From Lentisphaeria bacterium (GTDB lineage Bacteria > Verrucomicrobiota > Lentisphaeria > Victivallales > UBA1829), in the NCBI GenBank assembly GCA_017963105.1, contig JAGCTY010000031.1:794-64793 (forward strand): a stretch of 64,000 nucleotides of DNA, given 5' to 3'. The notes beneath the pieces were generated by a model that saw only the letters and a program-made list of their open reading frames with translations, searched no databases and had not been told where the DNA came from. Positions 38,013-53,859 of the stretch are shown piece by piece (within the stretch, counting starts at the first letter, position 1; every line of letters starts with the position of its first letter). Position numbers and translations under genes: made by a program.

Positions 38013-38089
38013 ATAGGATTGAAACGGCTGATGTTCTTGAATGCGCCGTACGGTTCCCTCGATCTTGAAACACCCCTGGAGAACTTGCC

Positions 38090-39433
38090 ATGAAAAAGAA
38101 AACTGTCTGGATTACCGCCGCGATCCTATGCCTTGTCGCCGTCATTTTTGTGCTGGTGCAGGTATACAGATCGATCCTCATCGAAGGGACGATCACGGAC
38201 GATCAGGGAAACGCCATGAACGGGGTTTCCGCCTATGTGACCTTTTCGCGCAAAAAAGCGGGATGGTACAGTGGGACAAAAGAACTCGAGGAGACCGTCG
38301 ATTCCTCCTTCCGTTTCGAGGGGAAAGGCGACGCTGTCTTCGTCGTTTTCGCCAAAAAAGGATACGCTCCGGGGCAAATCCAGCTTGACCGCGGGCGCGG
38401 CAGCCAAGTGCTCCGGCGCGACCTCCGCATCGTCATGAAGGAATTGACGCCGGAAGAACTGGAAAAACGTTTTTTCAGGACGATCTACGAATGGAGTCAA
38501 CTTGATGTCTACATCGACGCAGGGGAAAAAATGCCCACGACCGAGGACCAGCTTGAGCGTTTGCGCAAGTATTTCGGGCTGGAAAAAAGCGATATGACGG
38601 ATCTTTTCGTGAAAGCGATTCGGGAAGGCGTCGATACCGGCGAGGAGATCCTCGCCGAAGTTCATTTCGTCGACGATGAGGACAAGGAATACCTGATTGG
38701 CCCTCCGGACGATCTTTCCGGGATCGAAACGAAATCGGAGAAAAGGTCGCTCAGAGAACGGTATTTCTCTGCAATGCGTTATCTTCAGTATTATCCGCCG
38801 CCTCAGCAGCAGTTTTTGGAATTGATCCGGAAAGCAGTCGAACTGGAGCCGGAGTCCGCGGACACGCTCATTCTCTCTTATACGAAGGCGTACCCGGATT
38901 GGGTGTTCGATGACGGAACGATCCTTGAATTGACCTGCAAAAGCGACATGGAAGAGTTTAATCTTCGCGAGGCCGGCTCCGATTTAAGGGTTCAAGTTCG
39001 TCAGGAAAACGACGAGGCACGCAGGAAAAAGCTTCTTGACAAGGCTTTCGAATGGGCATTCCAGGACGACAAGGTCGAAATCTTTCATTATTTGGATAGG
39101 CTTTTGCTTGACCACTACGATAAGGATTACGCAACGAATCCCGGACGAAAGCTCCAGTTGGAAAAGGATTTGAAGCGTCATGAGGAAGCGGAGATTTATG
39201 ACTGGGTTTACCGCCGGACAAAATACGCTCTGGAACATTTCGACGAGGGAGATGAAGCGCTTGAAATGTTATACAAGTTGGATACAGATCCCAAAAGGTG
39301 GGATGGTGAGTGGGAACGTTCCGAGCGTAAAAGACGGATAAGAGAGAGTATAGAAGAGTGGAAGAAGGAGGGAAACGATCCGTCGTATATTTTTTCTGAA
39401 GATTTTCTCGAACGAATATACAAAGATGAATAG
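38090..39433 (+). CDS. Cassette 1: exported protein (beta-sandwich module A plus helical module B)
   Basis: Signal MKKKTVWITAAILC; IEGTITDDQG..TVDSSF..KKGY module; C-terminal half paralogous to 48159-49286. Confidence 0.8.
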   Translation: MKKKTVWITAAILCLVAVIFVLVQVYRSILIEGTITDDQGNAMNGVSAYVTFSRKKAGWYSGTKELEETVDSSFRFEGKGDAVFVVFAKKGYAPGQIQLDRGRGSQVLRRDLRIVMKELTPEELEKRFFRTIYEWSQLDVYIDAGEKMPTTEDQLERLRKYFGLEKSDMTDLFVKAIREGVDTGEEILAEVHFVDDEDKEYLIGPPDDLSGIETKSEKRSLRERYFSAMRYLQYYPPPQQQFLELIRKAVELEPESADTLILSYTKAYPDWVFDDGTILELTCKSDMEEFNLREAGSDLRVQVRQENDEARRKKLLDKAFEWAFQDDKVEIFHYLDRLLLDHYDKDYATNPGRKLQLEKDLKRHEEAEIYDWVYRRTKYALEHFDEGDEALEMLYKLDTDPKRWDGEWERSERKRRIRESIEEWKKEGNDPSYIFSEDFLERIYKDE

Positions 39434-39444
39434 ACTCCTTCTTT

Positions 39445-39483
39445 CCTCACCATCCCCGGCCGACTAACCCCGACACCACGGAG
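39445..39483 (+). repeat. Array repeat copy 1
   Basis: CCTCACCATCCCCGGCCGACTAACCCCGACACCACGGAG; similarity to other copies continues to about 39534. Confidence 0.95.
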
Positions 39484-39493
39484 AAAAATCAAT

Positions 39494-42400
39494 ATGAAAT
39501 ACAAATCGGTCAGCACCATCGCCGCGATCCTCTGTCCACTGGCGACACAATACAGGCGAACGGAAAAACGTTATAATAAGAGACAACAACACACAGGGGG
39601 TCCCGATATGAAAATGAAATCGATCCGCAGTGCTTTCTTCGCCGTAGTCGCGATCTTTCTGACCGTCGCAGCGTTCACCGGATGCGGCAAAAGCGAGGAA
39701 GGCGCGCCGGCCTCGAACGCCTCGGAAACGAAGACCGAAGCATCCGCCAGCACGACCCTCGAACAGCAAAAGAGCGCTCCGGGCGAAGCGGAACTCAGGA
39801 AAGGGCTTGCCGCCTGTGACAAGAATGACTACGAAGCGGCCGTGAAGTCCTTCCGCGCCGCCGCGGAACAGGGCAACTCGGACGCCATGCTGCTGTACTA
39901 TGATTGTCTGGTGAGCAGCAAGATCGCGAAAGACAGGGCTGACTCCATAGAATGGCTGGAAAAAGCCGCGGAGGCCGGAAACCTGACGGCGCAGGCGCTC
40001 TACGGCAGTAAATTTGTGGGCGGGGGGCAGGAAGCGAAGGGGATCGAATACATGAAGCGGTCCGCGGACAGCGGAAACATCCTGGGCATGCACCTGCTCG
40101 GGATGACCGCCTTTGAAAAAAAGCCCGGAGAAGCGGGCGAGGATGCCTTGAAGTCTCTGAAAACGCTTGCCGGCCTGCCGTTCTCGGAACAGAAAACAGT
40201 TTTGGATTATCTGCACCGGATCAGCAGCGACTTCAATCTGACGGGAAAACTCAACACCAATACGAACAAGCTCATCGTCATGGATCAATACATGCTCGGC
40301 GTGTATTACCTCGAAGGCAGAGCGCCCGGCGGGCGGCGGGATCTCGACGAGGCGGCGAAGTGGCTGAAGATGGCAAAGGACAACGGGCTTCCCGATGTCG
40401 ATCCGCTCCTGCGGAGGGTTGAGGTGATGAAGCAGAGCCCCGACGCAAGCCGGACCAATGAGGAACTCCAGAAGGCCAGAGCCGAAGCCTTCCTGGCCGA
40501 TACGCAAAACCAGATCGACGCTTCGGAATTCGACCTTCGGTTCACCATCACGGACGCCGACGGCAAGCCGCTGGACGGCGTCAAAGTGGAAATGAGACTG
40601 GAGCGTCCGGTTGTCAAATTGCTCCTGAGCGGCGGATCGGAATCCAAAAAACCGGAAGAGAAGACGGTCGATTCCAAGTTCAGCATTCACGAAAAAGGCT
40701 GGACGAGCCTCGAACTTACGTTCATGAAAGACGGCTATTATATCGAAGACCGCTACTATTATATCAACTTCATGCCGAACAGTCCCGACGAGCTCGGCCC
40801 GGACGGCAAACCGAAGCTCGTGATGAAGGAAGACGTCCAGGTCGTCATGTACAAGGGCGTCCCCCCCGGCGACCTGACCGGGACCAGCGGATACCTGATC
40901 TATGATTTAGAAAAAGCGACAAAGACGGTCTGCGATCTTTCCGCGTTCGACAAAAAGCTGGAACGACCGAAAAAGAGGACTGTTTCGGAGAAAGACGAGG
41001 AGGACGAGGAATATGATGACGAGGACGAGGAAGACGAAGAGGAATATGTGGAGGAAATCAGGATCGGAATGAAGAAGGTCGACCTGAAGGCGAAACCGGA
41101 ATTGACAAAGTATATCGAAGTGGATTTCAGGCGGGACGAAAACGGCGAAGTCCTGTTCGACGGGACGCTGGGGGACGCCCCGTGCCCCTCATCGTTCATC
41201 ATCCGTCTCCACTCCGACGATCCCGACGACGGTTTTATCGTCGTGGACGAATTGGGACCGGGGTTCGTCAGACGGGAAGAATACGAAAAACGTTGTCCGA
41301 CCGCCCCGGAAACCGGATACAAAAAAGAACTCGTGTTCGATTTCGGGAAAAAAAGCGCCGATGGGAAATACACGTATAATGATATTCACACATTCGCTTT
41401 CGTGAAATGCGGACAGCGCTACGGAAAAGTCTTTATCGATCCCGTTTATGTCGACATCGGAAGGAACCGGCCGCTCCGTCTGTTCCACAGGAAAATCCAG
41501 TTGACGATCAACAGAACCGAAGGCGACAGGAACGTGTCGGGCGGCAGTTTCTATGTCGAACGCGAGCGACCGGCGCAAACCAGGAACGACTTGAAGAAAA
41601 CGGATGCGAAGAACGAAGCCAAAGACGCTTCCGATGACAAGGCCGAACTGGCGAAAGAACAAATCCTGCTGATTCATGATGCACTTGAGCAGTACAAACT
41701 GGACGTCGGGACTTATCCCTCCAGTCTGCAGGGCCTCGAAAAGAACGTCGACAAGTCCGAACGCTGGGACGGCCCCTACATCGTGCCGAAGGTCCCGCGG
41801 GTGGATCTCTGGGGCAACAAATACCAGTACCGTTTCGACGCGGAAAAAGGAACGTATCGCCTGTACCTGATCTCGTTCGACCTTTCCGAAACGAGAATCG
41901 AGGATCCCCCGGAATCGGCGCAGGAACAACAGACCGAACCGGACGATCCGAAACAACCGGACATCTTCGCGGGATTGCCCCTCTGGAACACGGCGCGTGA
42001 CGGAAAGCCCGAAGTCATGCTCCCCAGACTCGTCAAGGATGCGGCGAAACGTGCGAATGTCAATCTCCAGTCGCTCGGCGATGTCAGGATCGATCCGATC
42101 GATGCCGGGCATTCCTACGCCGAGCTCGATCTCGATGTCGTCGACGAATACGGCAAAATCGTCCGCTTCCTCGAGGAAATCGAGAAGAAAACGCCGAAGC
42201 TTGCCTGGCGCCGCCTCGAACTCCGAGTCAATTCCGCCCGCGAACGCATCGCGTCCGAACTGCAGGACGGCGCGTCCGCTGCGGCCTCCGCCAAAGCGAT
42301 CCGCATGAGCGGGCAGGTCCGCGTCATCGCGTACGATCCGGCAGCCGGTCCCTCCGCATCGCCGAAGAGATTTTGGACGGATGACATGCCGGTTTCCCCC

Positions 42401-42982
42401 GGCGAAACGGACATTCTCACCCTGCTTTACGATTTGTCTGTCTCGCTCCCCGATGACGCTCTCGTGACCGTTTTCCGGCTTGACAACTGGAAATGCGAGT
42501 TCGTGATCCAGACGCTGGCGCTTTATACCGACCTCCCTCGGTACCTGCGCTTCCCCGCCTGGAATATCGGCAGGCTGCAGAAGAGGATCCTTTCCGATGA
42601 CGTTTGTACTTTCTCCGTGGCCCTTCAGAAAAAAGACAATCCGGAGCCGCGAAAGGACAGTGTGACCCCGGATAAAAAGATCGCGACCATCGTGGCTCTG
42701 AACCTCTTCGACCCGGAAGCCGTTCCGCGTAAGGCGGCCGCCTCCGGCATGCCCGCCTCGAACGGTACGCGCGCGAACAACGCGAAAGACCCTGAAACGG
42801 AACTGAAAGAGCAGCTGAAGAAGGCGATCAACAACCAGAATGAACTGAAAGAACTGCTCAAAACGCTCTCGAATACGCCCGGCGCCACGAAAGAGCAGAC
42901 CGATATGGTCGAGCAGCGCCTGAAACGCAACGAACAGGAGATCAGGCGCCTTCGGGAACAGCAGAACAGGCTTCGTCCCTGA
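39494..42982 (+). CDS. Cassette 2: mosaic lipoprotein (Sel1 repeats, modules A and C, GspG-like and GspM/GspL-like segments); probable start 39608
   Basis: Lipobox FTGC after the in-frame ATG at 39608; Sel1 motifs AAEQGNSDA and AAEAGN; region paralogous to 44943-45995; ALEQYKLDVGTYPS..WDGPY..D.WGN.YQY. Confidence 0.8.
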   Translation: MKYKSVSTIAAILCPLATQYRRTEKRYNKRQQHTGGPDMKMKSIRSAFFAVVAIFLTVAAFTGCGKSEEGAPASNASETKTEASASTTLEQQKSAPGEAELRKGLAACDKNDYEAAVKSFRAAAEQGNSDAMLLYYDCLVSSKIAKDRADSIEWLEKAAEAGNLTAQALYGSKFVGGGQEAKGIEYMKRSADSGNILGMHLLGMTAFEKKPGEAGEDALKSLKTLAGLPFSEQKTVLDYLHRISSDFNLTGKLNTNTNKLIVMDQYMLGVYYLEGRAPGGRRDLDEAAKWLKMAKDNGLPDVDPLLRRVEVMKQSPDASRTNEELQKARAEAFLADTQNQIDASEFDLRFTITDADGKPLDGVKVEMRLERPVVKLLLSGGSESKKPEEKTVDSKFSIHEKGWTSLELTFMKDGYYIEDRYYYINFMPNSPDELGPDGKPKLVMKEDVQVVMYKGVPPGDLTGTSGYLIYDLEKATKTVCDLSAFDKKLERPKKRTVSEKDEEDEEYDDEDEEDEEEYVEEIRIGMKKVDLKAKPELTKYIEVDFRRDENGEVLFDGTLGDAPCPSSFIIRLHSDDPDDGFIVVDELGPGFVRREEYEKRCPTAPETGYKKELVFDFGKKSADGKYTYNDIHTFAFVKCGQRYGKVFIDPVYVDIGRNRPLRLFHRKIQLTINRTEGDRNVSGGSFYVERERPAQTRNDLKKTDAKNEAKDASDDKAELAKEQILLIHDALEQYKLDVGTYPSSLQGLEKNVDKSERWDGPYIVPKVPRVDLWGNKYQYRFDAEKGTYRLYLISFDLSETRIEDPPESAQEQQTEPDDPKQPDIFAGLPLWNTARDGKPEVMLPRLVKDAAKRANVNLQSLGDVRIDPIDAGHSYAELDLDVVDEYGKIVRFLEEIEKKTPKLAWRRLELRVNSARERIASELQDGASAAASAKAIRMSGQVRVIAYDPAAGPSASPKRFWTDDMPVSPGETDILTLLYDLSVSLPDDALVTVFRLDNWKCEFVIQTLALYTDLPRYLRFPAWNIGRLQKRILSDDVCTFSVALQKKDNPEPRKDSVTPDKKIATIVALNLFDPEAVPRKAAASGMPASNGTRANNAKDPETELKEQLKKAINNQNELKELLKTLSNTPGATKEQTDMVEQRLKRNEQEIRRLREQQNRLRP

Positions 42983-42993
42983 TAACGCTTACC

Positions 42994-43032
42994 CCTCACC
43001 ATCCCCAGCCGACTAACCCCGACACCCCGGAG
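42994..43032 (+). repeat. Array repeat copy 2
   Basis: CCTCACCATCCCCAGCCGACTAACCCCGACACCCCGGAG. Confidence 0.95.
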
Positions 43033-43040
43033 ACCTTAAC

Positions 43041-44918
43041 ATGAAATACAAAACGGTCAGTACCATCGCCGCGATCCTCTGCGGTATCTTTGCATTGTTT
43101 ACCGCGACTCCGGCGACATCCGCGGAGATCATCGAGCATCCATACTGGATGACGGCGGAAAATACGAAAGGCATCCCGGAAGTGATCCTGCAGGGGTATC
43201 TGTATCGGAAAAACAAAACAAGAAAGGCGCTCGAAAAACAGAACGGCCCCAGGAGCGAAGAAGAGGAACGGAGGATCAACGACGTGTGGAGCGGGAATCT
43301 GCTGGAGTTGTCGCAGTATCTGGCCGAACACCCGGAGGAACAGCGGAAACTGGCGGAACATTACAAGAAGATCAGGATCGACGAGATCGACTGGGGGAAT
43401 CCGCCCGATCCGCCGTGGGTGAACGAGATCATTCGAAAAGAAATGGATCCGGCAAACCTGAAAGTGAACATCGAGCTCTATTACGACAGCCCGGAATGGA
43501 CGAAAGGGGCAGCCGAAAGAAATGCGCTGGGAGTTTTCGGCAGAACTTTTTTCCCGGATCAGCCTGCTCCCGTCGAAGGTCCTGACTTTGGAATCGGCTT
43601 TGGCGGGGGTAACGGGAATCATCCGGCCGACCGTTTCGAGCTCCTGAAACTCATTGCGCAGGAAAAAGAGAATCCGCATCAGTTCGATGGTTTCTTCAAC
43701 GCGAGAGACTGGGTGCGGTATTGGGAACAGCCGTACGGCGTCACCCGGAATACCTGCGTGATCGACCGGGAGTTCGAACGGAACGTCATGCTCGTTCTGT
43801 CCAGGACGGCCCCCATCGCGGAGCCTCAGAAACAATGGAACGCGCCTGTGCTGTCCAGATCCCTCCGGGATGACGATCATTATCAGTATTATCAATACAC
43901 CTGGCTGAACCGCTGCAAACTCGGCGTACTGTCCATGCTCATCACCGTAATCGAGGATCATGCGACCGGACTGATCTATAAAAATGATCTGCCGCGCGAT
44001 GATATGAGGGCCGCGCTCGACCTCTTCGCCTCGAAACTGCAATCGGGGAACGACGATATGGAAGCGGTCGCCCGTCTTCTCCGCATGATGCACGGGATGG
44101 CGCTGTGCGATATGCCCGGCGGAGCGGAATACGAAGCGATCGGGATGTGCCGCCGTGCATTGACGAAATGGGCAGGGATGAAGAACTGGTACTGGGAAAA
44201 ATCGGAAGAACTCCTGCAGCATGACAAGAACAACAAGGATGCAGTGCTGATTCCGCATCCCGTCAAAAAGCAGGATTTCTGGCCGAAACGCGATTCCGTG
44301 CAGCCGGACGAACCCGAAGTCATCCTCACGCTGGAAGGGACGCTTAACGCTTCGGGCAAGTTCGTTTTTACAGGCGACACGATCCGGTACGACGCACCCG
44401 GCGAACACCAGGCCCCGTCCGACGTCACGATCGACGGCAAGCCGTGGAAGGACCTGAACCAGCCGTTCAAGCTCGCTTTCACCCCGGATTTCGAGAATGT
44501 CATCATCGCGGACAGAGCGGGCGGGAACGGCGTTATGCTGAACAGAGGTTCGGAGCGGGCAGAGCTCACTCTCTTCATCGTCGATGCACATGCACCCGCG
44601 CCGCACTTTGTGGTCCGGCTGGTCGTCAAAAACGTCAGCAGTTCGCGCACAGAGCCTGCTCGCCTGAACCCGTCGGAGCTCCCGTCCGGCCCGATCCCGT
44701 TCCAACAGCAGTTGCAGATGGCGCTCGAACGGCGCGCCGTGCTGGAAAAAACGATCAGGAATCTTGAATTGGTCCCGGATTTCCCGGAGGAGTCGATCGA
44801 CGAGGTGCGCAGGCAACTCCGGGATCTCGACCGTATGATCGAGCTACTGAAAGAGGTCGTCGAAAAAGCAGCCGCCCGTGATGCAAACGAACCACCCTCG
44901 CCACCCCCAGCCGACTAA
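43041..44918 (+). CDS. Cassette 3: secreted hypothetical protein
   Basis: MKYKTVSTIAAILC signal; the ORF ends at the TAA inside repeat copy 3 (PSPPPAD*). Confidence 0.8.
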   Translation: MKYKTVSTIAAILCGIFALFTATPATSAEIIEHPYWMTAENTKGIPEVILQGYLYRKNKTRKALEKQNGPRSEEEERRINDVWSGNLLELSQYLAEHPEEQRKLAEHYKKIRIDEIDWGNPPDPPWVNEIIRKEMDPANLKVNIELYYDSPEWTKGAAERNALGVFGRTFFPDQPAPVEGPDFGIGFGGGNGNHPADRFELLKLIAQEKENPHQFDGFFNARDWVRYWEQPYGVTRNTCVIDREFERNVMLVLSRTAPIAEPQKQWNAPVLSRSLRDDDHYQYYQYTWLNRCKLGVLSMLITVIEDHATGLIYKNDLPRDDMRAALDLFASKLQSGNDDMEAVARLLRMMHGMALCDMPGGAEYEAIGMCRRALTKWAGMKNWYWEKSEELLQHDKNNKDAVLIPHPVKKQDFWPKRDSVQPDEPEVILTLEGTLNASGKFVFTGDTIRYDAPGEHQAPSDVTIDGKPWKDLNQPFKLAFTPDFENVIIADRAGGNGVMLNRGSERAELTLFIVDAHAPAPHFVVRLVVKNVSSSRTEPARLNPSELPSGPIPFQQQLQMALERRAVLEKTIRNLELVPDFPEESIDEVRRQLRDLDRMIELLKEVVEKAAARDANEPPSPPPAD

Positions 44919-44934
44919 CCCCGACACCACGGAG
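44896..44934 (+). repeat. Array repeat copy 3
   Basis: CCTCGCCACCCCCAGCCGACTAACCCCGACACCACGGAG. Confidence 0.95.
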
Positions 44935-46010: not shown

Positions 46011-46049
46011 CCTCACCATCCCCAGCCGACTAACCCCGACACCACGGAG
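46011..46049 (+). repeat. Array repeat copy 4
   Basis: Consensus copy, followed by a short leader ORF at 46058-46162 (MKYKTVSTIAAILCPLATQYRRTKKRYNKKQQHT*). Confidence 0.95.
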
Positions 46050-46171
46050 GAAATACCATGAAATACAAAACGGTCAGCACCATCGCCGCGATCCTCTGTC
46101 CACTGGCAACACAATATCGGCGAACGAAAAAACGTTATAATAAGAAACAACAACACACTTGAGGTCCCGAT

Positions 46172-48079
46172 ATGAAAACGAAATCGTTCCGCAGCACGAT
46201 CTTTGCCGTCGTCGCACTCTTCCTGACCGTCGCAGCGTTCACCGGATGCGGCAAACGCGGGGGAAATGCGGATCATTCTTTACGGGAAGACAATGCCGCA
46301 TTTGAGGCAAAGGATGGAGAAAACACGGAAGAGCTTTCGGAAAAAGGCAATGCCGCTTTTGAGGCGAAGGATTTGGAGATCGCGACCATTCAGCTGGAAC
46401 AGTATTCCGGCAGCGTCCGCTCCTCACAACCGGACGTAAGAACGCAGTCCGTTTCCATTGCGAACCGGTCCGACAAAACGATTGACTTATACGGCTATTC
46501 CGTCACGAACAACGGAAAAGAAATCCTGCGGATCAACGAGCATGTCGAATTGGAAAAAGATGCAAAGAAGGTGTTTCCGCTCCCTTTAGTCGATACAGGA
46601 AAAGAGAACAGGAAGCAGGGATTCGCAATCGAGCCATGGTTCCTTTACTCCATAGTCTTCAAGGACGAGAATGAAGCCCGGAAGGAACGGGAAGAGCTTG
46701 CGACGATGATGGAACGGTATCTGCCGTATCTCACGGAACTGAGTAAAACGATATTCGAAGTAGACTATAGTACGGGGAAATATTCGTTCTACTTTTCGGA
46801 AATCGCCTTGAAGTCTCCCCGGAATGAAACCGTGGACCAGATACTTCTGACGAAGGTGGATGTTCAGAAGAATCCGTATTCCCTTGTGGCATTCTTAGAA
46901 CCCATACAAGCCACAGGCGTTTTTCGGAAAGGAAATCGTGCGATCGTCTGCAGCGTGCCCGAAATGGCGCCTTTCCCGGTCGACATTATCTTTTACAGCG
47001 GGCAGTCACTGGCGATACTTACAAGCGGGAATCAATACTTCAGCGAAAACACCGGATTGTTTGTGCCGGATCTGAAGATGACATTATCCCTGTATCGTGA
47101 TCAGGACCTCAAGGAAGAAATGGTCCGTCTGGAAGGAGAGAAATTCTTTTTCAACAAAATGAGCGAAGCGCAAACGGATGAACTCGATAAGTTCCTGGAC
47201 GGGGCAAGAATGAAGGAAGTGTATTATAAACTTTCCGTCACGCATCCGGTTTTCCCCGAATTGTCGCTTCCGGAGCCATTGACCGGAAAAGTTAATATCC
47301 AGCTGCGGCTAGCGCGCAGCCCCGGCAGCGGCATCGCCTACGAGTACAACGCCCTCAACAACATCACGGGGCAGGTAAGAAATACGAATTGGAACACGGA
47401 ATCCGCGACTGGCAATGGCGGCGGAGCCGTCAACAGAACCGGAGGCAGATCCGCCGCGCAGGACGAGTATCCGGGTTCCCGGCTTGTGAACGGCATTCTT
47501 TACTCGGAGGACGGTTCCACCCTCATTTCCTGCGTTTCCGCGCCGAACGGCCCGTGCATCGTCCAGCCGGGCGTGAAGACCATCGCAGATCGCGCGTTTT
47601 CCGGCTGCGCCGGATTGACGGAAGTCCGCCTGCCGGAAGGCATCACGAAGATCGGCCGCTCCGCATTCTGGAAATGCTCCGGGTTGAAACGCATCAATCT
47701 GCCGGACTCGCTGGAAGAGATCGGGACCAATGTGTTTGAGGAGTGTACCGGACTGACGGAGATCGCGATCCCGCCGGGCATCCGTGTCATCAAGTCGAGC
47801 ACATTTATCGTGTGTGCCGGGCTGAAGCGCGTCGATCTGCCGGATTCGCTGACGGAAATCGAGTTTGCCGCGTTTACGGCGTGTACCGGGCTGACGGAGA
47901 TCACGATCCCGCCGAACGTCACATCCATCGGGGAAAGCGCGTTTGCGGGGTGTACCGGACTGAAGCACGTGACGCTCCCGGACAGCCTGAAATCCATTTC
48001 TCCGGGCGCTTTTTCCGGTTGCGAGTCCCTTGACCAGGAAACACGGGAGCGTCTGAACAAACTGACACGCAGGCCATAG
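46172..48079 (+). CDS. Cassette 5: lipoprotein with C-terminal BspA-type leucine-rich repeats (LRR_5)
   Basis: Lipobox FTGC; repeated C.GL..I.LP.SL..IG..AF units. Confidence 0.85.
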   Translation: MKTKSFRSTIFAVVALFLTVAAFTGCGKRGGNADHSLREDNAAFEAKDGENTEELSEKGNAAFEAKDLEIATIQLEQYSGSVRSSQPDVRTQSVSIANRSDKTIDLYGYSVTNNGKEILRINEHVELEKDAKKVFPLPLVDTGKENRKQGFAIEPWFLYSIVFKDENEARKEREELATMMERYLPYLTELSKTIFEVDYSTGKYSFYFSEIALKSPRNETVDQILLTKVDVQKNPYSLVAFLEPIQATGVFRKGNRAIVCSVPEMAPFPVDIIFYSGQSLAILTSGNQYFSENTGLFVPDLKMTLSLYRDQDLKEEMVRLEGEKFFFNKMSEAQTDELDKFLDGARMKEVYYKLSVTHPVFPELSLPEPLTGKVNIQLRLARSPGSGIAYEYNALNNITGQVRNTNWNTESATGNGGGAVNRTGGRSAAQDEYPGSRLVNGILYSEDGSTLISCVSAPNGPCIVQPGVKTIADRAFSGCAGLTEVRLPEGITKIGRSAFWKCSGLKRINLPDSLEEIGTNVFEECTGLTEIAIPPGIRVIKSSTFIVCAGLKRVDLPDSLTEIEFAAFTACTGLTEITIPPNVTSIGESAFAGCTGLKHVTLPDSLKSISPGAFSGCESLDQETRERLNKLTRRP

Positions 48080-48111: not shown

Positions 48112-48150
48112 CCTCACCATCCCCAGCCGACTAACCCCGACACCACGGAG
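48112..48150 (+). repeat. Array repeat copy 5
   Basis: Consensus copy. Confidence 0.95.
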
Positions 48151-48158: not shown

Positions 48159-49286
48159 ATGAAACACAAATCGGTCAGCACCATCGCCGCACTCCTCTGC
48201 GGCGGCTTCCTCTCGTTTATTCCGGCATTCGCGCAGGAGAACACGGATGGAAAAACGGAACAAGACAAGACCTCACAAATGCAGCCGCATTACACGCTGG
48301 AGGAGCTGAAGAATGCTGAAATAACGGCGACCGGGGCAACGAACGCCGATAACAATGGATCGTCAGGCACTTCGCTGAACAATGACCAGATGGAAGAATT
48401 GACAGAATCACTCTTTCAGGCAATTCAATTTTGGTCATCGCTTGATGACATGCGTAACCCAGAAGCCAGTCTTAGCAGATATGATCGCCTTGAGCTCTGG
48501 CGTAAAGAACATAAACTCGAAAAAGATGATATGACGAAGATTTTTGTCAAAACAATTCAAGTTTATTTTTTAGAACTGGAAAAGAAATCAGAAAACAAAA
48601 AACTTATGATGTGGCATTTTTATGCCATCTCCAGTCTCAGGGATTATCCGCCGCCTCAAAAGGTGTTCAAGGAACTGATTCAAAAAACATTTCAAATGGA
48701 ACCAAATTGTGTTGAAGGGGTCATATATGAGTATATAAGTGTATTCCCGGATTGGGTTTTTGATGACAAACCGATTATTGAAATAATATATAAAACCAAC
48801 TCAAAAACAAACAGACTTTACAGAGTGTGCTCTGATTTAAAAGACCAAATTCTTAAAGAAAAAAATGAAGTTCGTAAAAAGAAGCTTCTTGATAAGGCTT
48901 TCGAATGGGCTTTTCAGGATGACAAGCTTGACATCTTCTGTTTTTTAGACAGAACTTTGCTTGACCACTACGATAAGGAGTATGCAACACATCCTGGACG
49001 AAAGCTCCAACTGGAAAAGGATTTGAAGCGTTATGAGGAAGCCAAGAATTACGACTGGGTTTACCGCCGGACGAAATATGCGCTGGAGCATTTCGGCGAG
49101 GGAGACGAAGCGTTTGAAATGTTATACAAGATGGATACGGATCCCAAATTGCAAGATGGTGAATGGGATCGTTCTGAGCGCAAAAGACGCTCAAGAGAGC
49201 ATATAGAAGAGATGAAGAAGGCGGGAAAAGACCCCAGGTCTGTTTATTCCAAAAGGTATCTTGACGAACTATACAGCGATGAATAA
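48159..49286 (+). CDS. Cassette 6: secreted protein (module B), AT-rich
   Basis: MKHKSVSTIAALLC signal; KKLLDKAFEWAFQDDK and PGRKLQLEKDLKR are shared with cassette 1. Confidence 0.8.
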   Translation: MKHKSVSTIAALLCGGFLSFIPAFAQENTDGKTEQDKTSQMQPHYTLEELKNAEITATGATNADNNGSSGTSLNNDQMEELTESLFQAIQFWSSLDDMRNPEASLSRYDRLELWRKEHKLEKDDMTKIFVKTIQVYFLELEKKSENKKLMMWHFYAISSLRDYPPPQKVFKELIQKTFQMEPNCVEGVIYEYISVFPDWVFDDKPIIEIIYKTNSKTNRLYRVCSDLKDQILKEKNEVRKKKLLDKAFEWAFQDDKLDIFCFLDRTLLDHYDKEYATHPGRKLQLEKDLKRYEEAKNYDWVYRRTKYALEHFGEGDEAFEMLYKMDTDPKLQDGEWDRSERKRRSREHIEEMKKAGKDPRSVYSKRYLDELYSDE

Positions 49287-49292
49287 ACATCC

Positions 49293-49331
49293 CCTCACCA
49301 TCCCCAGCCGACTAACCCCGACACCACGGAG
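49293..49331 (+). repeat. Array repeat copy 6
   Basis: Consensus copy. Confidence 0.95.
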
Positions 49332-49339
49332 GATATAAC

Positions 49340-52249
49340 ATGAAATCTAAAACAGCTTGGATCATTGCCCTGATCGCGCTGCCGCTTCTTGCGGCAGTAT
49401 TCACTCTGCACGCACAGAAACAAGACGACGGACGGGACAAACAGGAGCGCTCTTTTGGAGTTGAAAAGATTTATATTAGTGATGGTATTTTAAATTATTG
49501 TCTATCTCCGGATGCAGCTGACAGCGCTGTTGTGCTTTATTCCTTTGATATTCGAGATGGAGAATGTAAACAATACTATTTACCTATGACAATCGTTCCC
49601 GAAATCGACACCAGAAATGATGGGAATAAACAAATCATTAAATTCCCCCTTGCATGGTACATGAACAGCGAAGAGTTACTTATTGTATTTCATGATTTAG
49701 AATCAGATGCAATGGGCAGAGTTATATTTTGTCTTTTTTCAACAGACAGGACCCGCGATTTTGATTTTCGGTCTTTTACAGATTATTATGAATATCAAAA
49801 TGATATAATGAAGTATAAGGGGTTTTATTTCGGCGTGGGTGGCCGCATATATATCCATGGAATGAGTTCTGCCCCATTTGTGGATCATCGTCTAACTAAC
49901 AATTCTAAAATATGGTATGATTTTGCTGGCAAAAATATTATTGCACGTTTCCCATCCTTATCCGATAAGCAAGAAAACTGGATGCCATCAGAAAATCCAG
50001 CATACTATAAATGGATGTCGTATGCAATTGAAGATGGTAAGAGTATTGTTATTCAAGATGATCAATTGAAAGATTTTTACCCATTATCAAGTATTTCTGT
50101 AAAAGGGAAAAAAATCTATACGGATAATGGTGAAACGATCAACTTTCCAAGCGATATTGATTCGATCATTTGGGGTATTGATAACAATTCAACTCCAAGT
50201 ATAATATTGTTATCTCAAACCGATAAGATTAAAATTTCTAAAAAGGATTATCCGAAACTTCCGAAGTTGATTCTTGCAAATGAAGACTCTGATTACGTGA
50301 TGTTTATTTTTGACCGCAAGATTGATTCATCGAATGTGCAAGGTTCTTTACAGGAGATCAAAGATGTGCTCGAAAAGAGCAGTTTATTACAACAATATCC
50401 ACCACGTCCTAAGAAAAAGGAAGTTAAGCCAACAGAAAATGTGATACATACTGCTACGCCATCGCCTGAAGAAATGAAACGGAGAGAAGCTGAATATTTA
50501 GCGAATCATCTCAAAGTATTGTATGAATCCGCCAATATTATTGTTACAATTACGCCACCAGATATCAATCAATTCAGTGAAGGTAATATTCAATTGCTTG
50601 ATAAATCGAAACAAAATAAAATATTATGGGAAATGGCAATTCCAAGTCAAATGGAATCAGGAACAGGGGCCGGGGCTATAAAATCAACGGCGTTTTTTGA
50701 AGATAATAAACGCGGATTTTTCTATGCTGCTATTATCCGCAATGAACTGTTTCCTGAAGTAGTTATTCTTAAAATTGATTCAAAGAATGAAACAGTAAGT
50801 GAATTAAGGTTTGCCAGTCCTTTTCTTCCGGACCTGCCATTTAAAAAGATGAAGTTGAACGTGGTCCAAAATATTGTTTTTTTATCTGTCACATATAATG
50901 ACAATAAACATCAAGAATCTGCTATAGATATTTCTTCTGGTTTTTACAATATGATATTGAATGAGAGACATAGAAAATATCCATATATACCGACAGAATT
51001 GTTTCTATTATTGACATCAGGTGACACAAATGATAATGATGATTTTCTCGACATACAGGATATAAAACATAAAAGGTTAAAGTCACTGTATGCAGACCTG
51101 ACGATTTTAGGATTAAGTTTCGCCGAATATTTGTATCATGTCGATGTTAAAGGCTCCTCCATTAATGATAGCACATTTGCTAATCTAAACAAAAAATATC
51201 ATGTTAGTTCGTTGCTTAACAATAAAGTTTATGAAGATGAGTTAGATCACTATTTGGATCAAAACTCAGAGATTTTATGGTCTATTCAAAAAAGAATAGA
51301 CAAACGAATAATTCGACAGGCAAAATTTCTAAACAAAGATGCATTCTTAAAACAAATAGCTCAAATACATGTATCGAAAGACGCGGGGGCTGCCGTTAAT
51401 CCATCGCCTGAAGAAATGGAACGGAGAAAAGCTGAATTTTTAGCGAATCTACCGAAAGATAACATTTTTACCGATGACGAGTTTAAAGCTCTGTTTCCCA
51501 AGGTTGAATATGATAAAATTTCCGATTTATACGAGCGTGGCATGGCTTATGATTGGGATGAGAAATTCTCCGATGCCATGAAATGCTTTGAGCAAGACTC
51601 ATCATTAAAGTCAAAATTAATGTTGGCAATGTATTACAAAACCGGGAGACCTGATATTCCAAAAGACTCTGTCAAGGCTAATGCTATCTTTAATGAGATA
51701 ATTGAAGATGTCAGTAACAAATCCGCCCCCACTCCTGAAATGTTATGCATAGCCGGACGCGCCTGCATGGAATTTGTTTCAACAGAATTTTTTGAAACAC
51801 AAGAGTTTCAAAAAAAAGCAACAGAATTCTTCAAAGAATCCATTGAGCAAGGATATGCTGCTGCCGCTTTTTATCCTCAATATTACATAAGAAACAATGG
51901 TAAGTTTCAACCTCGGGAATTACTTGAAATAGCCAACAAAAACAACTGTTTGGACACTGAAGTGTTAGCCGCAGGGATGGCATTATTTCGGAATCCTGTC
52001 TTTATGAATTATCGCAACAAACAGGAAAACCTGTTAACCATCAAAAAGGGTATTCAAGCACACATCCCATTGGCGGAATATATCCTTGGCGAATTATTCT
52101 ATCTTGATGCCGCGAATCCTGATCTTGCATTAAAGCCGAATCGAGAACTGGCGTTATTCTGGATGAAACGTGCCGCGAATCATGGAGAAGCGGATGCCAT
52201 AGAACTTTTACGGCAAAATCCCACTTTGAGATCATTGCTGCATCCTTGA
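49340..52249 (+). CDS. Cassette 7: large, very AT-rich secreted protein with C-terminal Sel1-like repeats
   Basis: Signal peptide; ALFWMKRAANHGEADA; internal duplicated SPEEM.RR.AE.LAN linker. Confidence 0.8.
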   Translation: MKSKTAWIIALIALPLLAAVFTLHAQKQDDGRDKQERSFGVEKIYISDGILNYCLSPDAADSAVVLYSFDIRDGECKQYYLPMTIVPEIDTRNDGNKQIIKFPLAWYMNSEELLIVFHDLESDAMGRVIFCLFSTDRTRDFDFRSFTDYYEYQNDIMKYKGFYFGVGGRIYIHGMSSAPFVDHRLTNNSKIWYDFAGKNIIARFPSLSDKQENWMPSENPAYYKWMSYAIEDGKSIVIQDDQLKDFYPLSSISVKGKKIYTDNGETINFPSDIDSIIWGIDNNSTPSIILLSQTDKIKISKKDYPKLPKLILANEDSDYVMFIFDRKIDSSNVQGSLQEIKDVLEKSSLLQQYPPRPKKKEVKPTENVIHTATPSPEEMKRREAEYLANHLKVLYESANIIVTITPPDINQFSEGNIQLLDKSKQNKILWEMAIPSQMESGTGAGAIKSTAFFEDNKRGFFYAAIIRNELFPEVVILKIDSKNETVSELRFASPFLPDLPFKKMKLNVVQNIVFLSVTYNDNKHQESAIDISSGFYNMILNERHRKYPYIPTELFLLLTSGDTNDNDDFLDIQDIKHKRLKSLYADLTILGLSFAEYLYHVDVKGSSINDSTFANLNKKYHVSSLLNNKVYEDELDHYLDQNSEILWSIQKRIDKRIIRQAKFLNKDAFLKQIAQIHVSKDAGAAVNPSPEEMERRKAEFLANLPKDNIFTDDEFKALFPKVEYDKISDLYERGMAYDWDEKFSDAMKCFEQDSSLKSKLMLAMYYKTGRPDIPKDSVKANAIFNEIIEDVSNKSAPTPEMLCIAGRACMEFVSTEFFETQEFQKKATEFFKESIEQGYAAAAFYPQYYIRNNGKFQPRELLEIANKNNCLDTEVLAAGMALFRNPVFMNYRNKQENLLTIKKGIQAHIPLAEYILGELFYLDAANPDLALKPNRELALFWMKRAANHGEADAIELLRQNPTLRSLLHP

Positions 52250-52267
52250 TCATTTTCAATTTAACCG

Positions 52268-52738
52268 ATGACGAACGTAATTTTCAACAGCGGCTTTATC
52301 GGCTTTTTGGTTTGGGTGTTGCTCTTTGCCGTCAGCACGGCGGCACTGGCAATCGCTATCCGCTGTGTGTGGGGGTTGCATAAAACTATATTTGCGATGG
52401 CGGAATTCAAAGAAAAGTTGATTCCGTTTCTTTTTCTCGCTTTCGCTCTGATGTTTTCGGTCCTTCCTCTGCGCGTCCAGGCGGCATTGCCGAAGGAACT
52501 TCCGACTGCACCGACGAAGTTCCTGACGGGAGCCTGCCTGACACGTTCGGAAGACCTTTGGATCACGGCGGAGGCGGGCGGCGTCTACCGTCTGAGCGGG
52601 CAGGAGATGAAGCCGAAGTGGAAGGATATGCGGAAGCAGCCGGGATTCCCGAAGACGGACAACTGCCAGTCTATAACAAAACAACAACAACTTGAAACCT
52701 CGCCGGAGCAGCACCCCTCACCACCCCCAGCCGACTAA
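52268..52738 (+). pseudogene. Probable chimeric fragment ORF (ExbB/TolQ-like N-terminus plus the start of a secreted beta-propeller-like protein)
   Basis: SGFIGFLVWVLLFAVS.AALAIAIR, then a second signal (LRVQA) and DLWITAEAGGVYRL; terminates in repeat copy 7. Confidence 0.45.
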
Positions 52739-52756
52739 CCCCGACACCGCATGGAG
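52716..52756 (+). repeat. Array repeat copy 7
   Basis: CCTCACCACCCCCAGCCGACTAACCCCGACACCGCATGGAG. Confidence 0.92.
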
Positions 52757-52764
52757 AATTTAAC

Positions 52765-53859
52765 ATGAAACACCGATTATTCCTGCCTGCGCTGATGTGC
52801 TGCCTGACACTGACGGCATTCGGTTTCTTCGTATTTGCCCTGGTCCGTGACTCCATGCGGAACACGCCGCAGACGGACTGGGAAGGATGGAACATGTATG
52901 TTGCCGTCCCTGAATTCGATTTGTCTTGCCGATTGGCCAAGAAATACGGGCTTGATGCCTGCCCGCCGTCAGATTGCACAAACGATCGCATTATCGGGTT
53001 CCGGTTCAACCTTGACCACCCGGAACACGCGGCGGAGATCGTGCGCGATCTCCATGAATGGAAGCGCCAGTCGCCGGAACTCGTCAACGAAACGTTCGGC
53101 GTGGATGCCTACCTCTATCGCTCGGATGACAAGCACTGGCGAACAGAACGGCTTCTGGTCATCCGCACGATGATGCCTGCGCCGGGAAGGACCGAATTTC
53201 AGGGGGCGTATCAGGGGCGGACAAGCGACGTGGTGATCGAAAACGGCAATGTTTCGAAGACGTTCACACCGGATGAGTTCTATCATCCCGCCGACGGATC
53301 CGACGAAGCCGATACATTCATCCGGGCCCTTGCGGACGCCCCCGTAGCCGAGACGGAGAAAACGGCTGGGGAAAAGATTCCCGATGTCAACAACGAGGCG
53401 ATGCTCACAAACCAGAAAGCGTACTTGGAAAAGAGCGGTCGTTCCATGTTCGAGATTCTGCCGGGACTGTTCGCCGCGACATGGTTCGACTTCATCTGCG
53501 CGATTGTCCTTTTCCTTTTCGCCATCCGTTATCGGGATCAGGGAATCGGCGGGCGTCTCTTCCCGTTATGGCTTCTGACCATCCTGCACATGCTTCTGTT
53601 TCCTTCGCTCGACCTCATTCCGCTCGACCATGACAAGATCGCCGGGACCATGACCGGAACCATTTTCCTCGTTCTGGAGTCGACAATCTTGTTTTCGCCC
53701 CTCGTCCTGTTCCTGTTTGCCCTAGTCTACGGAATCGCGCTGAGCAACATGAAGCGAACGGACCGCCCGTTGAAAATCGCCTTCGTTTTATTTTCCGCAA
53801 ACGTTCTCATTCAGGGGCTGATCGCATTGAGCGTATGGGCCCTTTCGCAGGGCGGATAA
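52765..53859 (+). CDS. Cassette 8: membrane protein (N-terminal anchor, extracytoplasmic domain, about 4 C-terminal TMs)
   Basis: Hydrophobicity pattern; starts directly after repeat copy 7. Confidence 0.75.
   Translation: MKHRLFLPALMCCLTLTAFGFFVFALVRDSMRNTPQTDWEGWNMYVAVPEFDLSCRLAKKYGLDACPPSDCTNDRIIGFRFNLDHPEHAAEIVRDLHEWKRQSPELVNETFGVDAYLYRSDDKHWRTERLLVIRTMMPAPGRTEFQGAYQGRTSDVVIENGNVSKTFTPDEFYHPADGSDEADTFIRALADAPVAETEKTAGEKIPDVNNEAMLTNQKAYLEKSGRSMFEILPGLFAATWFDFICAIVLFLFAIRYRDQGIGGRLFPLWLLTILHMLLFPSLDLIPLDHDKIAGTMTGTIFLVLESTILFSPLVLFLFALVYGIALSNMKRTDRPLKIAFVLFSANVLIQGLIALSVWALSQGG

What the first reader, a model, noticed from the sequence alone, without database searches (positions are those of the whole stretch)
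38071..53859. Integron-like array of exported-protein cassettes punctuated by a conserved 39-bp non-attC repeat
Seen: seven near-identical copies of CCTCACCATCCCCAGCCGACTAACCCCGACACCACGGAG start at 39445, 42994, 44896, 46011, 48112, 49293 and 52716. Each sits at the end of one gene and ends in the GGAG RBS a few bases before the next ATG. All genes are co-oriented, all carry signal peptides, lipoboxes or TMs, and they range from host-like GC to strongly AT-rich. Known: integron attC sites are imperfect palindromes (RYYYAAC...GTTRRRY), CRISPR spacers are tens of bp, and shufflon sites flank invertible segments. This repeat fits none of these, and no integrase is visible in the window. Inference: a cassette capture, excision or shuffling system for surface proteins, in which the repeat is both the crossover site and a ready-made translation start. 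It could be driven by a recombinase encoded elsewhere or by RecA-dependent exchange.
Basis: partly seen in the sequence, partly recalled or inferred. Interest (0 to 1): 0.9.

Follow-up and report, generated by a model that had tools for sequence, protein, structure and literature searches.

The report
Shuffled secreted-protein cassettes sharing one junction
In an uncultured rumen Victivallales bacterium, nine exported-protein genes form one array whose gene-to-gene junctions are copies of the same short leader sequence, and related strains carry different genes on either side of that junction, so it marks where gene cassettes are swapped, most likely by ordinary homologous recombination and not by an integron-like enzyme.

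Summary
Six copies of the 39-mer have 0-2 mismatches, and a seventh is diverged. None is expected by chance.

The repeat is longer than reported. It runs 39-mer, GGAG, ATG and, in five copies, about 45 nt of shared signal-peptide codons. Its 20-nt core is restricted to one genus of rumen Lentisphaeria/Victivallales MAGs. The core occurs in a fixed order: promoter-core-[gene-tail-core]n-terminator.

The array fills a variable island between conserved M24-peptidase and PP2C genes. It lies between a conserved promoter and the gene that promoter drives in sister species.

Across 76 junctions, 14 of 17 recurrent left flanks pair with two or more right partners. Contigs about 98% identical to the window differ by whole cassettes.

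I found no linked recombinase, no dyad symmetry and no hairpin. One resolved crossover lies in the signal-peptide codons, outside the 39-mer. A private variant of the repeat has spread through five junctions of this array.

Verdict: cassette shuffling at the repeat is supported. An integron-like enzymatic system is not. The best reading is homologous recombination at a duplicated operon leader. All evidence comes from short-read assemblies.

The parts
33145..34272 (+). M24 peptidase gene, the conserved left border of the variable island
   Evidence: Pfam Peptidase_M24, E 8e-43. 97% aa identity to the G013 gene. 90.5-95.6% nt identity in 10 relatives.
37985..38012 (+). Promoter-like element ahead of the first array gene: TTGCAT, 16 nt, TG-n-TATGGT
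   Evidence: Read from the sequence. It aligns with the region upstream of the g9 orthologues of G013 and G004, with the region upstream of the first cassette of G005, and more distantly with the promoter module that precedes the core in relatives. It was not listed by the consensus scan. Function is inferred.
38090..39433 (+). g1, 447 aa, N-terminal signal/anchor. Its C-terminal half is paralogous to g6.
   Evidence: 52% identity to g6 over 326 aa. No Pfam family.
39445..39483 (+). Junction repeat 1
   Evidence: 1 mismatch.
39494..42982 (+). g2, 1162 aa. A 38-aa leader peptide is fused in frame to a lipoprotein start. Contains Sel1 and an internal T2SSG-like domain.
42994..43032 (+). Junction repeat 2
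   Evidence: 1 mismatch.
43041..44918 (+). g3, 625 aa, signal peptide. Its stop codon is the TAA inside repeat 3.
   Evidence: 98.5% nt identity in L031 and L034, where a promoter precedes it instead of g2.
44896..44934 (+). Junction repeat 3
   Evidence: 2 mismatches.
44943..45995 (+). g4, 350 aa lipoprotein-like. A transthyretin-like beta-sandwich followed by a second all-beta domain.
   Evidence: Model pLDDT 87.9. Z 8.2 to the carboxypeptidase D transthyretin-like domain, and Z 7.3-7.5 to HmuY/BfrB-like lipoproteins for residues 148-345.
46011..46049 (+). Junction repeat 4
   Evidence: 0 mismatches.
46058..46162 (+). 34-codon short ORF: the shared signal-peptide start joined to the older 5' UTR of the g5 lipoprotein gene
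   Evidence: The same arrangement occurs in L018, L041 and L016.
46172..48079 (+). g5, 635 aa lipoprotein with BspA-type leucine-rich repeats
   Evidence: (LRR_5, E 5e-49).
48112..48150 (+). Junction repeat 5
   Evidence: 0 mismatches.
48159..49286 (+). g6, 375 aa, signal peptide, paralogue of g1
49293..49331 (+). Junction repeat 6
   Evidence: 0 mismatches.
49340..52249 (+). g7, 969 aa, AT-rich, Sel1/TPR C-terminus, with an internal 58-nt direct repeat
   Evidence: Direct-repeat family D8. 95-97% nt identity to the G001 copy.
52268..52738 (+). g8, 156 aa membrane protein. No repeat lies before it. Its stop codon is the TAA inside repeat 7.
52716..52756 (+). Junction repeat 7, diverged, with two extra bases before GGAG
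52765..53859 (+). g9, 364 aa multi-pass membrane protein, the resident gene of the locus in sister species
   Evidence: 44-47% aa orthologues lie upstream of PP2C in G010, G013, G006, G004 and G015. In those with full ORF calls, a 136-aa ORF lies between them.
55109..55933 (-). PP2C phosphatase gene, the conserved right border of the island
   Evidence: Pfam PP2C_2. Found in 14 of 15 other species of the genus.

Best explanation
The repeat is the standard junction of a modular operon of exported-protein genes.

What the core is. Its 20-nt core (AGCCGACTAACCCCGACACC) is the transcribed leader of a promoter family found only in this genus of rumen Victivallales. The same leader recurs directly after the promoter, between consecutive genes, and after the last gene before a terminator hairpin. 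Between genes it is preceded by a 13-nt C-rich tail. Every cassette is therefore bracketed by identical sequence.

What the leader provides. It is C-rich and unstructured. It gives each gene the same Shine-Dalgarno sequence and spacing, and often the same signal-peptide start.

How cassettes move. General homologous recombination acts on this 33-100 nt of identity. It can act within an array, between arrays, or with incoming DNA. It deletes, duplicates, inserts and reorders whole cassettes, and it homogenises the junctions. Recombination between the two core copies that flank a terminator-promoter module would fuse neighbouring transcription units into one operon.

Result in this genome. The resident promoter-g9 unit between the M24 peptidase and PP2C genes has grown into a nine-gene array.

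Shown: the order of elements, the genus restriction, the variable island, cassette-level differences with boundaries at the junction, one crossover mapped to the signal-peptide codons, and the spread of a private repeat variant.

Inferred: RecA dependence, co-transcription, the translational role of the leader, and fusion by deletion of the terminator-promoter module.
For: Order of elements.
- Of 66 distinct junction contexts, the core is followed by GGAG-ATG in 47, by the terminator hairpin in 11 and by a longer leader in 6. It is preceded by the promoter module in 4 (sequences).
- In L016 and L027 two core copies flank a terminator-promoter module.

Leader origin.
- The region upstream of g1 aligns with the promoter region that drives the g9 orthologue in G013 and G004.
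- That ancestral 5' UTR already contains CCCCGACACC before its GGAG.

Variable island, in the 9 relatives whose locus spans M24 to PP2C.
- G001 and G014 hold no homologue of any array gene. One search lists a 136-aa ORF there in G001.
- G013 and G004 hold a g9 orthologue plus the 136-aa ORF. G010 holds both plus a 165-aa ORF. G006 holds a g9 orthologue.
- G003 holds a Fic gene only.
- G005 holds 3 cassettes.
- G002 holds 4 cassettes.
- The flanking genes are 86-96% nt identical.

Shuffling.
- 14 of 17 recurrent left flanks have two or more right partners, and 11 of 14 recurrent right flanks have two or more left partners.
- The 3' end of g4 is followed by four different things: the short ORF plus g5 in the window, another gene in L031 and L042, a g7-type start in L032, and a terminator in L054.
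- L031 has g3 at 98.5% and g4 at 97.8% nt identity, with an extra 1.2-kb cassette between them.
- Public-run contigs show further repeat-to-repeat joints. One (49315 to 46107) appears in 3 runs from 3 studies.

Homologous rather than site-specific recombination.
- The crossover for that extra cassette lies after the 39-mer and the spacer between GGAG and the ATG, inside the 45 nt of shared signal-peptide codons.
- Other breakpoints fall at repeats inside genes.
- The variant tail CCTCACCATCCCC is in 5 of 10 copies in this genome, all in the array, against 1 of 69 copies elsewhere. Orthologous junctions in other strains carry the common form.
- No recombinase lies on the four contigs that carry the core.
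- There are no inverted repeats of 25 nt or more and no significant fold as DNA or RNA.

Operon.
- Junction gaps are 24-62 nt.
- Terminator-like sites are not enriched: 26 found against 26.0 expected.
- Contigs of an RNA library cover 23 of 30 bins of the stretch. This is weak evidence, because DNA carry-over is possible.
Against: Assemblies only. All adjacency data come from short-read metagenome assemblies and k=31 unitigs of mixed communities. Joins across a repeat of about 100 nt could be chimeric. No long read or isolate confirms the order of cassettes in the window or in any comparison contig. Joins whose shared stretch is only about 40-45 nt are less exposed to this. Examples are the g7-type and terminator neighbours.

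Resolution. Only one crossover could be placed relative to the 39-mer. Most lie somewhere inside the identical stretch, so a fixed cleavage site cannot be excluded for them.

Unexplained conservation. Homologous recombination alone does not explain why the core stays nearly invariant in species that hold a single copy (G004, G005). It also does not explain why the core sits before terminators. A sequence-specific factor may act on it.

Circularity. The high conservation of the core is partly circular, because those copies were found by searching for the core.

Not universal. In an unbiased look at g4-family genes, many carry other leaders, so the core is not used by the whole family.

Not shown. 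Promoter, co-transcription and RecA dependence are untested.
Confidence: 0.6

Rival explanations
1. A dedicated recombinase encoded elsewhere in the genome recognises the asymmetric core and excises or inserts cassettes next to the resident promoter. This would be a true integron-like system with a site unlike attC.
For: Layout.
- The cassettes are co-oriented and promoterless, and each is bracketed by the same site.
- The array has grown between a resident promoter and the resident gene.
- The first site is a half-site: promoter plus core without the tail.
- The last cassette still carries a full site before the terminator.

Conservation and candidates.
- The core is nearly invariant across species.
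- Four tyrosine recombinases exist elsewhere in the genome.
Against: - None of the 4 PF00589 hits is on a contig that carries the core, and there are 0 PF00239 hits.
- In 5 relatives, 1 of 25 PF00589 hits is within about 8-11 kb of a core-bearing site.
- The site lacks the inverted binding arms or hairpin used by known tyrosine, serine and integron recombinases.
- One crossover lies outside the 39-mer.
- The private repeat variant has spread independently of the left-hand genes.
- No circle junction could be shown. The one joint that goes back also fits the gene order of another strain (L048 and L050).
Confidence: 0.1
2. The core is above all a cis-regulatory operator in the RNA or the DNA, bound by a specific factor that co-regulates these exported proteins through translation, stability, processing into monocistronic mRNAs, or Rho loading. 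Cassette shuffling is then a by-product of its repetition.
For: - The core always lies in the sense orientation inside the predicted transcript: at the 5' end, between cistrons, and before the terminator.
- It is C-rich and G-poor and is predicted to be unstructured.
- It contains the pentamer CCGAC twice, 10 nt apart. The heptamer GCCGACT recurs in the terminator module (my reading).
- It is retained in species that hold a single copy.
Against: - No Rfam family matches.
- There is no conserved fold.
- No complementary partner of 14 nt or more exists elsewhere in the genome.
- Many paralogues work with other leaders.
- No read-level 5' or 3' ends were available (table 6: none).
- The idea does not conflict with the recombination evidence. 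It differs only on why the sequence is kept.
Confidence: 0.2
3. The array and its apparent variability are artefacts of assembling short reads from mixed strains across a shared repeat.
For: - The genome is a MAG of 187 contigs, 87% complete with 6.6% contamination.
- Unitigs of the runs end at the repeats (table 8).
- Several related strains coexist in each run: pieces at 99% or more, at 95-99% and at 90-95% identity (table 1).
- Five junctions share about 90-100 nt.
Against: - The copies in the window differ from each other at specific positions, so they were not collapsed.
- Five of them share a variant that is almost absent elsewhere, which fits one genome.
- The same alternative joins recur in separate assemblies: L031 and L034, L031 and L042, L036 and L041, L048 and L050.
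- Several joins share only about 40-45 nt.
- The island differs between species-level MAGs whose flanks are collinear.
- The g7-g8 adjacency, which has no repeat, is kept in L018, L021/L045 and L057.
Confidence: 0.06

Closest known systems
Integrons (intI, attI, Pc promoter, attC-bounded cassettes). Features are recalled from general knowledge.
   Same: - Co-oriented, promoterless cassettes lie downstream of a resident promoter.
- Each cassette is bounded by a recurring site.
- Cassette content differs between strains.
- The array grows next to the promoter.
   Different: - No adjacent integrase.
- The site is an asymmetric, unstructured C-rich 20-39-mer, not an imperfect palindrome that folds.
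- The site carries the ribosome-binding site of the next gene and often its signal peptide.
- At least one crossover lies outside the site.
Mycoplasma Vpma/Vsp/Vsa surface-lipoprotein loci. [quoted passage not shown] It also describes a unique promoter and an adjacent xer1 that is essential for switching. I read passages of that paper only.
   Same: - A family of exported or lipoprotein genes has a conserved 5' untranslated stretch that is the place of exchange.
- Signal peptides are conserved.
- There appears to be one promoter per locus.
   Different: - All genes here are co-oriented, so exchange gives deletion, insertion or reordering. It cannot give inversion-based on/off switching.
- No recombinase is adjacent.
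- All cassettes are probably co-expressed.
- The variation seen here is between strains. It is not shown within a clone.
Recombining multigene families that evolve by unequal crossing-over and gene conversion at conserved 5' blocks. Examples recalled: Campylobacter fetus sap homologues, Mycoplasma hyorhinis vlp, and terminal reassortment of type III effectors, in which the promoter and secretion signal are reused.
   Same: - Conserved 5' blocks (leader plus secretion signal) are joined to unrelated mature domains.
- Copy number and order vary.
- Repeats evolve in concert.
   Different: - The shared block here is mostly non-coding.
- It sits at every intercistronic junction of one operon and also before terminators.
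- It belongs to a promoter-leader-terminator set of modules.
- The host is an uncultured commensal of the Lentisphaerota, not a pathogen.
REP/BIME-type intergenic repeats. Features are recalled from general knowledge.
   Same: A short repeat lies in intercistronic regions of operons.
   Different: - It is not palindromic.
- It has 10 copies, not hundreds, and 7 are in one array.
- It always abuts a start codon or a terminator.

Membership tests
Integron | Tyrosine recombinase (IntI) gene adjacent to the array | tested here: not met
   The 4 PF00589 hits in the genome are on C151, C35, C109 and C46. None is on C133, C54, C64 or C89. Pfam on 24 ORFs of the window found no recombinase.
Integron | attC sites: imperfect inverted repeats that fold as single strands | tested here: not met
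   0 inverted repeats of 25 nt or more in 37500-54500. Four junctions folded as DNA on both strands gave z from -1.73 to +0.87.
Integron | Co-oriented promoterless cassettes behind a resident promoter, with content that varies between strains | tested here: met
   The promoter is inferred from homology and hexamers and is not shown to be active.
Mycoplasma Vpma/Vsp-type inversion system | Conserved 5' UTR site plus conserved signal peptide on each gene | tested here: met
Mycoplasma Vpma/Vsp-type inversion system | Adjacent site-specific recombinase | tested here: not met
Mycoplasma Vpma/Vsp-type inversion system | Genes in both orientations, so that inversion moves one promoter between them | tested here: not met
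   All nine genes and all seven repeats are on the + strand.
Multigene family reshuffled by general homologous recombination | Crossover points spread over the shared homology and not fixed at one site | tested here: met
   One event mapped to the signal-peptide codons. Others lie within the 39-mer region. Others lie at repeats inside genes. Only one event could be placed finely.
Multigene family reshuffled by general homologous recombination | Concerted evolution of the repeats within a genome | tested here: met
   The private tail variant is in 5 of 10 copies in this genome against 1 of 69 elsewhere.
Multigene family reshuffled by general homologous recombination | Dependence on RecA | not testable with these tools
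   Needs culture or a heterologous assay.
REP/BIME interspersed repeats | Palindromic unit scattered genome-wide | tested here: not met
Described RNA families (Rfam 15) | Match to a curated covariance model | tested here: not met
   0 matches at E up to 1 over 37500-54500, both strands.

The most novel reading that the evidence does not exclude
The asymmetric 20-nt core is the recognition site of an undescribed trans-encoded machine, either a recombinase or a guided nuclease/transposase. That machine would insert and excise promoterless secreted-protein cassettes next to a resident promoter. It would be a cassette-capture system unrelated to attC/IntI, in which the site doubles as the leader for translation.
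Probability: 0.08. Interest if true: 0.9.

Novelty: new variant of a known kind. Interest (0 to 1): 0.5.

Why it matters
If the reading holds, a gut commensal lineage builds its exported-protein repertoire from interchangeable cassettes. One standard junction carries the upstream stop codon, the leader, the ribosome-binding site and often the secretion signal.

Any gene placed between two junctions would then be transcribed, translated and exported. Strains could differ by whole cassettes at a hotspot between housekeeping genes.

This would be a natural counterpart of standardised intercistronic parts in synthetic operons. It would also be an integrase-free route to integron-like diversity. 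It offers a concrete locus for studying strain-level variation of surface proteins in uncultured rumen Victivallales.

In addition, the 20-nt core is a specific probe for recovering such arrays from rumen metagenomes.

Tried and rejected
Searches that gave nothing useful.
- Known RNA family: Rfam gave 0 matches.
- Structured RNA or attC-like DNA hairpin: no fold better than shuffles.
- Trans-acting antisense partner: apart from the 10 junction copies, the only match of 14 nt or more to the 39-mer on either strand is a 17-mer on C35.
- Serine recombinases: 0 hits in this 87%-complete genome.
- Consensus promoter/terminator scan: no terminator enrichment. It did not list the promoter that I infer from homology.
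- g0b (36578-37720) as a synteny anchor: found in only 1 of 15 other species, so M24 and PP2C were used instead.
- Protein Atlas for g6: best score 0.82, below the level the tool treats as more than a lead.
- Foldseek on the g4 model: only weak matches, TM about 0.2. VIA-align gave the domain-level leads used above. Values of Z below 8 may reflect common folds only.
- Viral contigs: one IMG/VR contig carries the core after an ankyrin-repeat gene, with the same sequence as L055 and L062. This is not evidence for a phage origin.

Limits of the read data.
- Only Logan contigs were available, so no starts, ends, circles or within-clone heterogeneity could be assessed.
- Parts without cover in X9, X11 or X15 say nothing.
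- The joint that goes back from 48157 to 38089 in X2 was considered as a circle junction. I rejected that as evidence, because the same gene order exists linearly in other strains (L048, L050).

Literature.
- The listings showed no paper on such arrays in Victivallales or Lentisphaerae. This covers only those three searches of the held library.
- Supplements were not consulted.

Ideas I considered and dropped for lack of fit, judged from recall and not tested here: DNA uptake sequence (far too few copies), Xer/dif-type modules (no dyad), G-quadruplex on the opposite strand (only two long G runs), and pairing of the tail with the Shine-Dalgarno sequence (not predicted).

Full report
OBSERVATION

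The 39-mer is on the + strand at 39445, 42994, 44896, 46011, 48112 and 49293 with 0-2 mismatches. None is expected in 100 shuffles. The copy at 52716 has one mismatch in its first 33 nt and two extra bases before GGAG.

All nine ORFs from 38090 to 53859 are on the + strand. By my reading of the translations, each starts with a signal peptide, a lipobox or a membrane helix. GC falls to 0.33-0.38 across the end of g6 and across g7.

ANATOMY

The repeated unit is larger than 39 bp.
- The full unit is the 39-mer, GGAG, 8-10 nt and ATG. In five copies about 45 nt encoding MKYK/MKHK-[TS]VSTIAA[IL]LC follow. One search reports 5 copies of 108 nt at 68-84% identity to the reference copy.
- After copy 46011 this start opens a 34-codon short ORF. 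It ends 9 nt before the g5 lipoprotein gene.
- After copy 39445 the same peptide is fused in frame to the lipoprotein start of g2.
- The TAA inside the repeat is the stop codon of g3 and g8.

DISTRIBUTION

- The genome (3.03 Mb, 187 contigs, 87% complete) has 10 copies: 7 in the window and one each on C54, C64 and C89.
- A 22-nt pattern containing the core, with up to 2 mismatches, was found in 9 of 15 other species of the genus. It was found in 0 of 45 genomes of other genera of the family and order.
- An exact scan of one genome for each of 185,579 species gave 10 contigs from 8 MAGs. Four contigs (three MAGs) are titled Lentisphaeria or Victivallales; six contigs (five MAGs) are titled only 'uncultured bacterium isolate RUG…'. 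'Rumen' appears only in two contig names, for the two RGIG MAGs.
- A metagenome scan gave 33 contigs.
- A viral scan gave one contig, whose sequence duplicates two metagenome contigs.

ORDER OF ELEMENTS

The 20-nt core AGCCGACTAACCCCGACACC appears in three settings.
- Directly after a conserved promoter module: TTGACT, 17 nt ending in TG-n, then TAAAGT or TATAGT.
- Between genes, preceded by the 13-nt tail CCTCACCACCCCC and followed by GGAG-ATG.
- After a last gene, with the tail, and followed by a conserved GC-rich hairpin.

Counts among 66 distinct contexts:

| Left of core | Right of core | Count |
|---|---|---|
| tail | GGAG-ATG | 30 |
| variant left arm | GGAG-ATG | 13 |
| promoter | GGAG-ATG | 4 |
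| tail or variant | terminator | 11 |
| tail | longer leader | 6 |
| other | other | 2 |

In L016 and L027 two cores flank a terminator-promoter module.

THE LOCUS

The array lies between an M24 peptidase gene (33145-34272) and a PP2C gene (55109-55933). The M24 gene has a PlsY-GpsA fusion gene as its divergent neighbour. These flanks are 86-96% nt identical in relatives.

| Relatives (9 loci spanning the interval) | Content between M24 and PP2C |
|---|---|
| G001, G014 | no homologue of any array gene; a 136-aa ORF is listed in G001 |
| G013, G004 | g9 orthologue (44-47% aa) plus the 136-aa ORF |
| G010 | as G013 and G004, plus a 165-aa ORF |
| G006 | g9 orthologue |
| G003 | a Fic gene, 94% aa identical to the window's |
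| G005 | three cassettes, with two core-type junctions |
| G002 | four cassettes, with two diverged cores |

The 150 nt upstream of g1 align with the region upstream of g9 in G013 and G004 and with the region upstream of the first cassette in G005. They contain TTGCAT, 16 nt, TG-n-TATGGT at 37985-38012.

The ancestral g9 leader already holds CCCCGACACC before its GGAG. So in this genome eight genes sit between a resident promoter and the gene it drives elsewhere. The right half of the core is an old leader.

SHUFFLING

- Of 17 left flanks seen at two or more of 76 junctions, 14 have two or more right partners. Of 14 recurrent right flanks, 11 have two or more left partners. Right flanks were clustered on the signal-peptide region, which undercounts partners.
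- The 3' end of g4 is followed by four different things: the short ORF plus g5 (window), another gene (L031, L042), a g7-type start (L032), and a terminator (L054).
- Four left flanks occur with both a short junction and a terminator.
- L031 holds g3 at 98.5% and g4 at 97.8% nt identity, with an extra 1.2-kb cassette between them and a promoter instead of g2 before g3.
- As a small control, the g7-g8 adjacency, which has no repeat, is kept in L018, L021/L045 and L057.
- Contigs of four public runs show further repeat-to-repeat joints. One of them appears in three runs from three studies.

MECHANISM

Evidence against a dedicated recombinase:
- No tyrosine recombinase lies on any contig of this genome that carries the core, and there is no serine recombinase.
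- In five relatives, 1 of 25 tyrosine-recombinase hits is within about 8-11 kb of a core-bearing site.
- The junction has no inverted repeat and no fold better than shuffles, as DNA on either strand or as RNA.

Evidence for general homologous recombination:
- I aligned the window's g3-g4 junction with the two L031 junctions. The window follows the g3 side through the tail, the core and the spacer between GGAG and the ATG. It switches to the g4 side only after the shared signal-peptide codons. That crossover is therefore outside the 39-mer.
- Other breakpoints lie at a 58-nt repeat inside g7 and in a module shared by g2 and g4.
- The tail variant with T at position 9 is in 5 of 10 copies here and in 1 of 69 elsewhere. 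Orthologous junctions in other strains carry C. This points to exchange among the copies of the array.

Together these results favour general homologous recombination over the whole shared stretch. Deletion between the two cores that flank a terminator-promoter module would produce the short junction. This step is inferred.

RNA LEVEL

- No Rfam match.
- No complementary partner elsewhere in the genome.
- The leader is C-rich and unstructured.
- Contigs of an RNA library cover 23 of 30 bins of the stretch, which is weak evidence of expression.
- A specific factor that binds the core is not excluded. It would explain why the core persists in single-copy species and before terminators.

CASSETTE PROTEINS

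- Pfam finds Sel1 and an internal T2SSG-like domain in g2, BspA-type leucine-rich repeats in g5, and Sel1/TPR in g7. It finds nothing in the other genes.
- A model of g4 (pLDDT 87.9) has a transthyretin-like sandwich (Z 8.2). Its second beta domain resembles HmuY/BfrB-type lipoproteins at Z 7.3-7.5, which is only a lead.
- g7 is 95-97% nt identical to the G001 copy, while its neighbours are 69-87% identical.

COMPARISON WITH KNOWN SYSTEMS

The layout resembles an integron, but two defining features fail: there is no adjacent integrase and no attC-like site.

It also resembles the Mycoplasma Vpma locus. [quoted passage not shown] Here the genes are co-oriented and no recombinase is linked.

I file it as a new variant of recombining surface-protein gene families. 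Three literature searches found no description of it in this lineage (listings only).

CAVEATS

- All evidence comes from short-read assemblies and unitigs of mixed communities.
- The cassette order in the window is not independently confirmed.
- Only one crossover was finely placed.
- Conservation of the core among copies that were found by searching for the core is circular.

Noticed in passing
window 49340-52249 (g7): This AT-rich gene (about 34% GC) encodes a 969-aa Sel1/TPR protein. It is 95-97% nt identical to the copy in another species (L018, G001), while the neighbouring cassettes are 69-87% identical. It may have moved between species recently. Relatives break or delete it at its internal 58-nt direct repeat (50459-50516 and 51401-51458).
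   Followed up: partly
window 39494-39607 and 46058-46162: The shared signal-peptide start is joined to what looks like the older 5' UTR of a lipoprotein gene. Before g5 this gives a 34-codon upstream ORF. In g2 it gives an in-frame 38-aa extension. The arrangement recurs in L016, L018 and L041. The true start of g2 may be the internal ATG at 39608.
   Followed up: partly
L016 about 11771-11976; L027 about 315-535; L020; L025: A module of about 165 nt, made of a GC-rich hairpin followed by a promoter, is repeated within and between related genomes. Copies of the core flank it. No copy was found in the window's own genome with up to 5-6 mismatches. A diverged version sits at window 37800-38022.
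   Followed up: partly
window 54160-55089 (- strand): A gene with Bro-N and Fic/DOC domains lies between the array and PP2C. A 94% identical copy occupies the same place in G003, where it is the only gene in the island.
   Followed up: no
window 39494-42982, residues 713-792: A type II secretion pseudopilin (T2SSG) globular domain sits in the middle of a 1162-aa lipoprotein, without the usual N-terminal pilin helix.
   Followed up: no
window 24699-31150 and 35202-37720: Several co-oriented ORFs upstream of the array have no Pfam family. g0b (36578-37720) was found in only 1 of 15 other species of the genus, so the variable island may start left of the array proper.
   Followed up: partly
window 54022-54046: A perfect 10-bp hairpin lies between the convergent g9 and Fic genes, with no T run on either side. 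It may be a terminator for both directions.
   Followed up: no
L114 (IMG/VR contig, 98.5 kb): The tail, core and terminator follow a 781-aa ankyrin-repeat gene on a contig filed as viral. The same sequence is in L055 and L062.
   Followed up: partly
L064-L092 (g4-family genes of the genus): At least three other recurring leader types precede paralogues of the same family. One follows a terminator-like hairpin and ends in CCAACCAAGAAACACCAGGAGGACT. The core may therefore be one of several interchangeable leaders.
   Followed up: no
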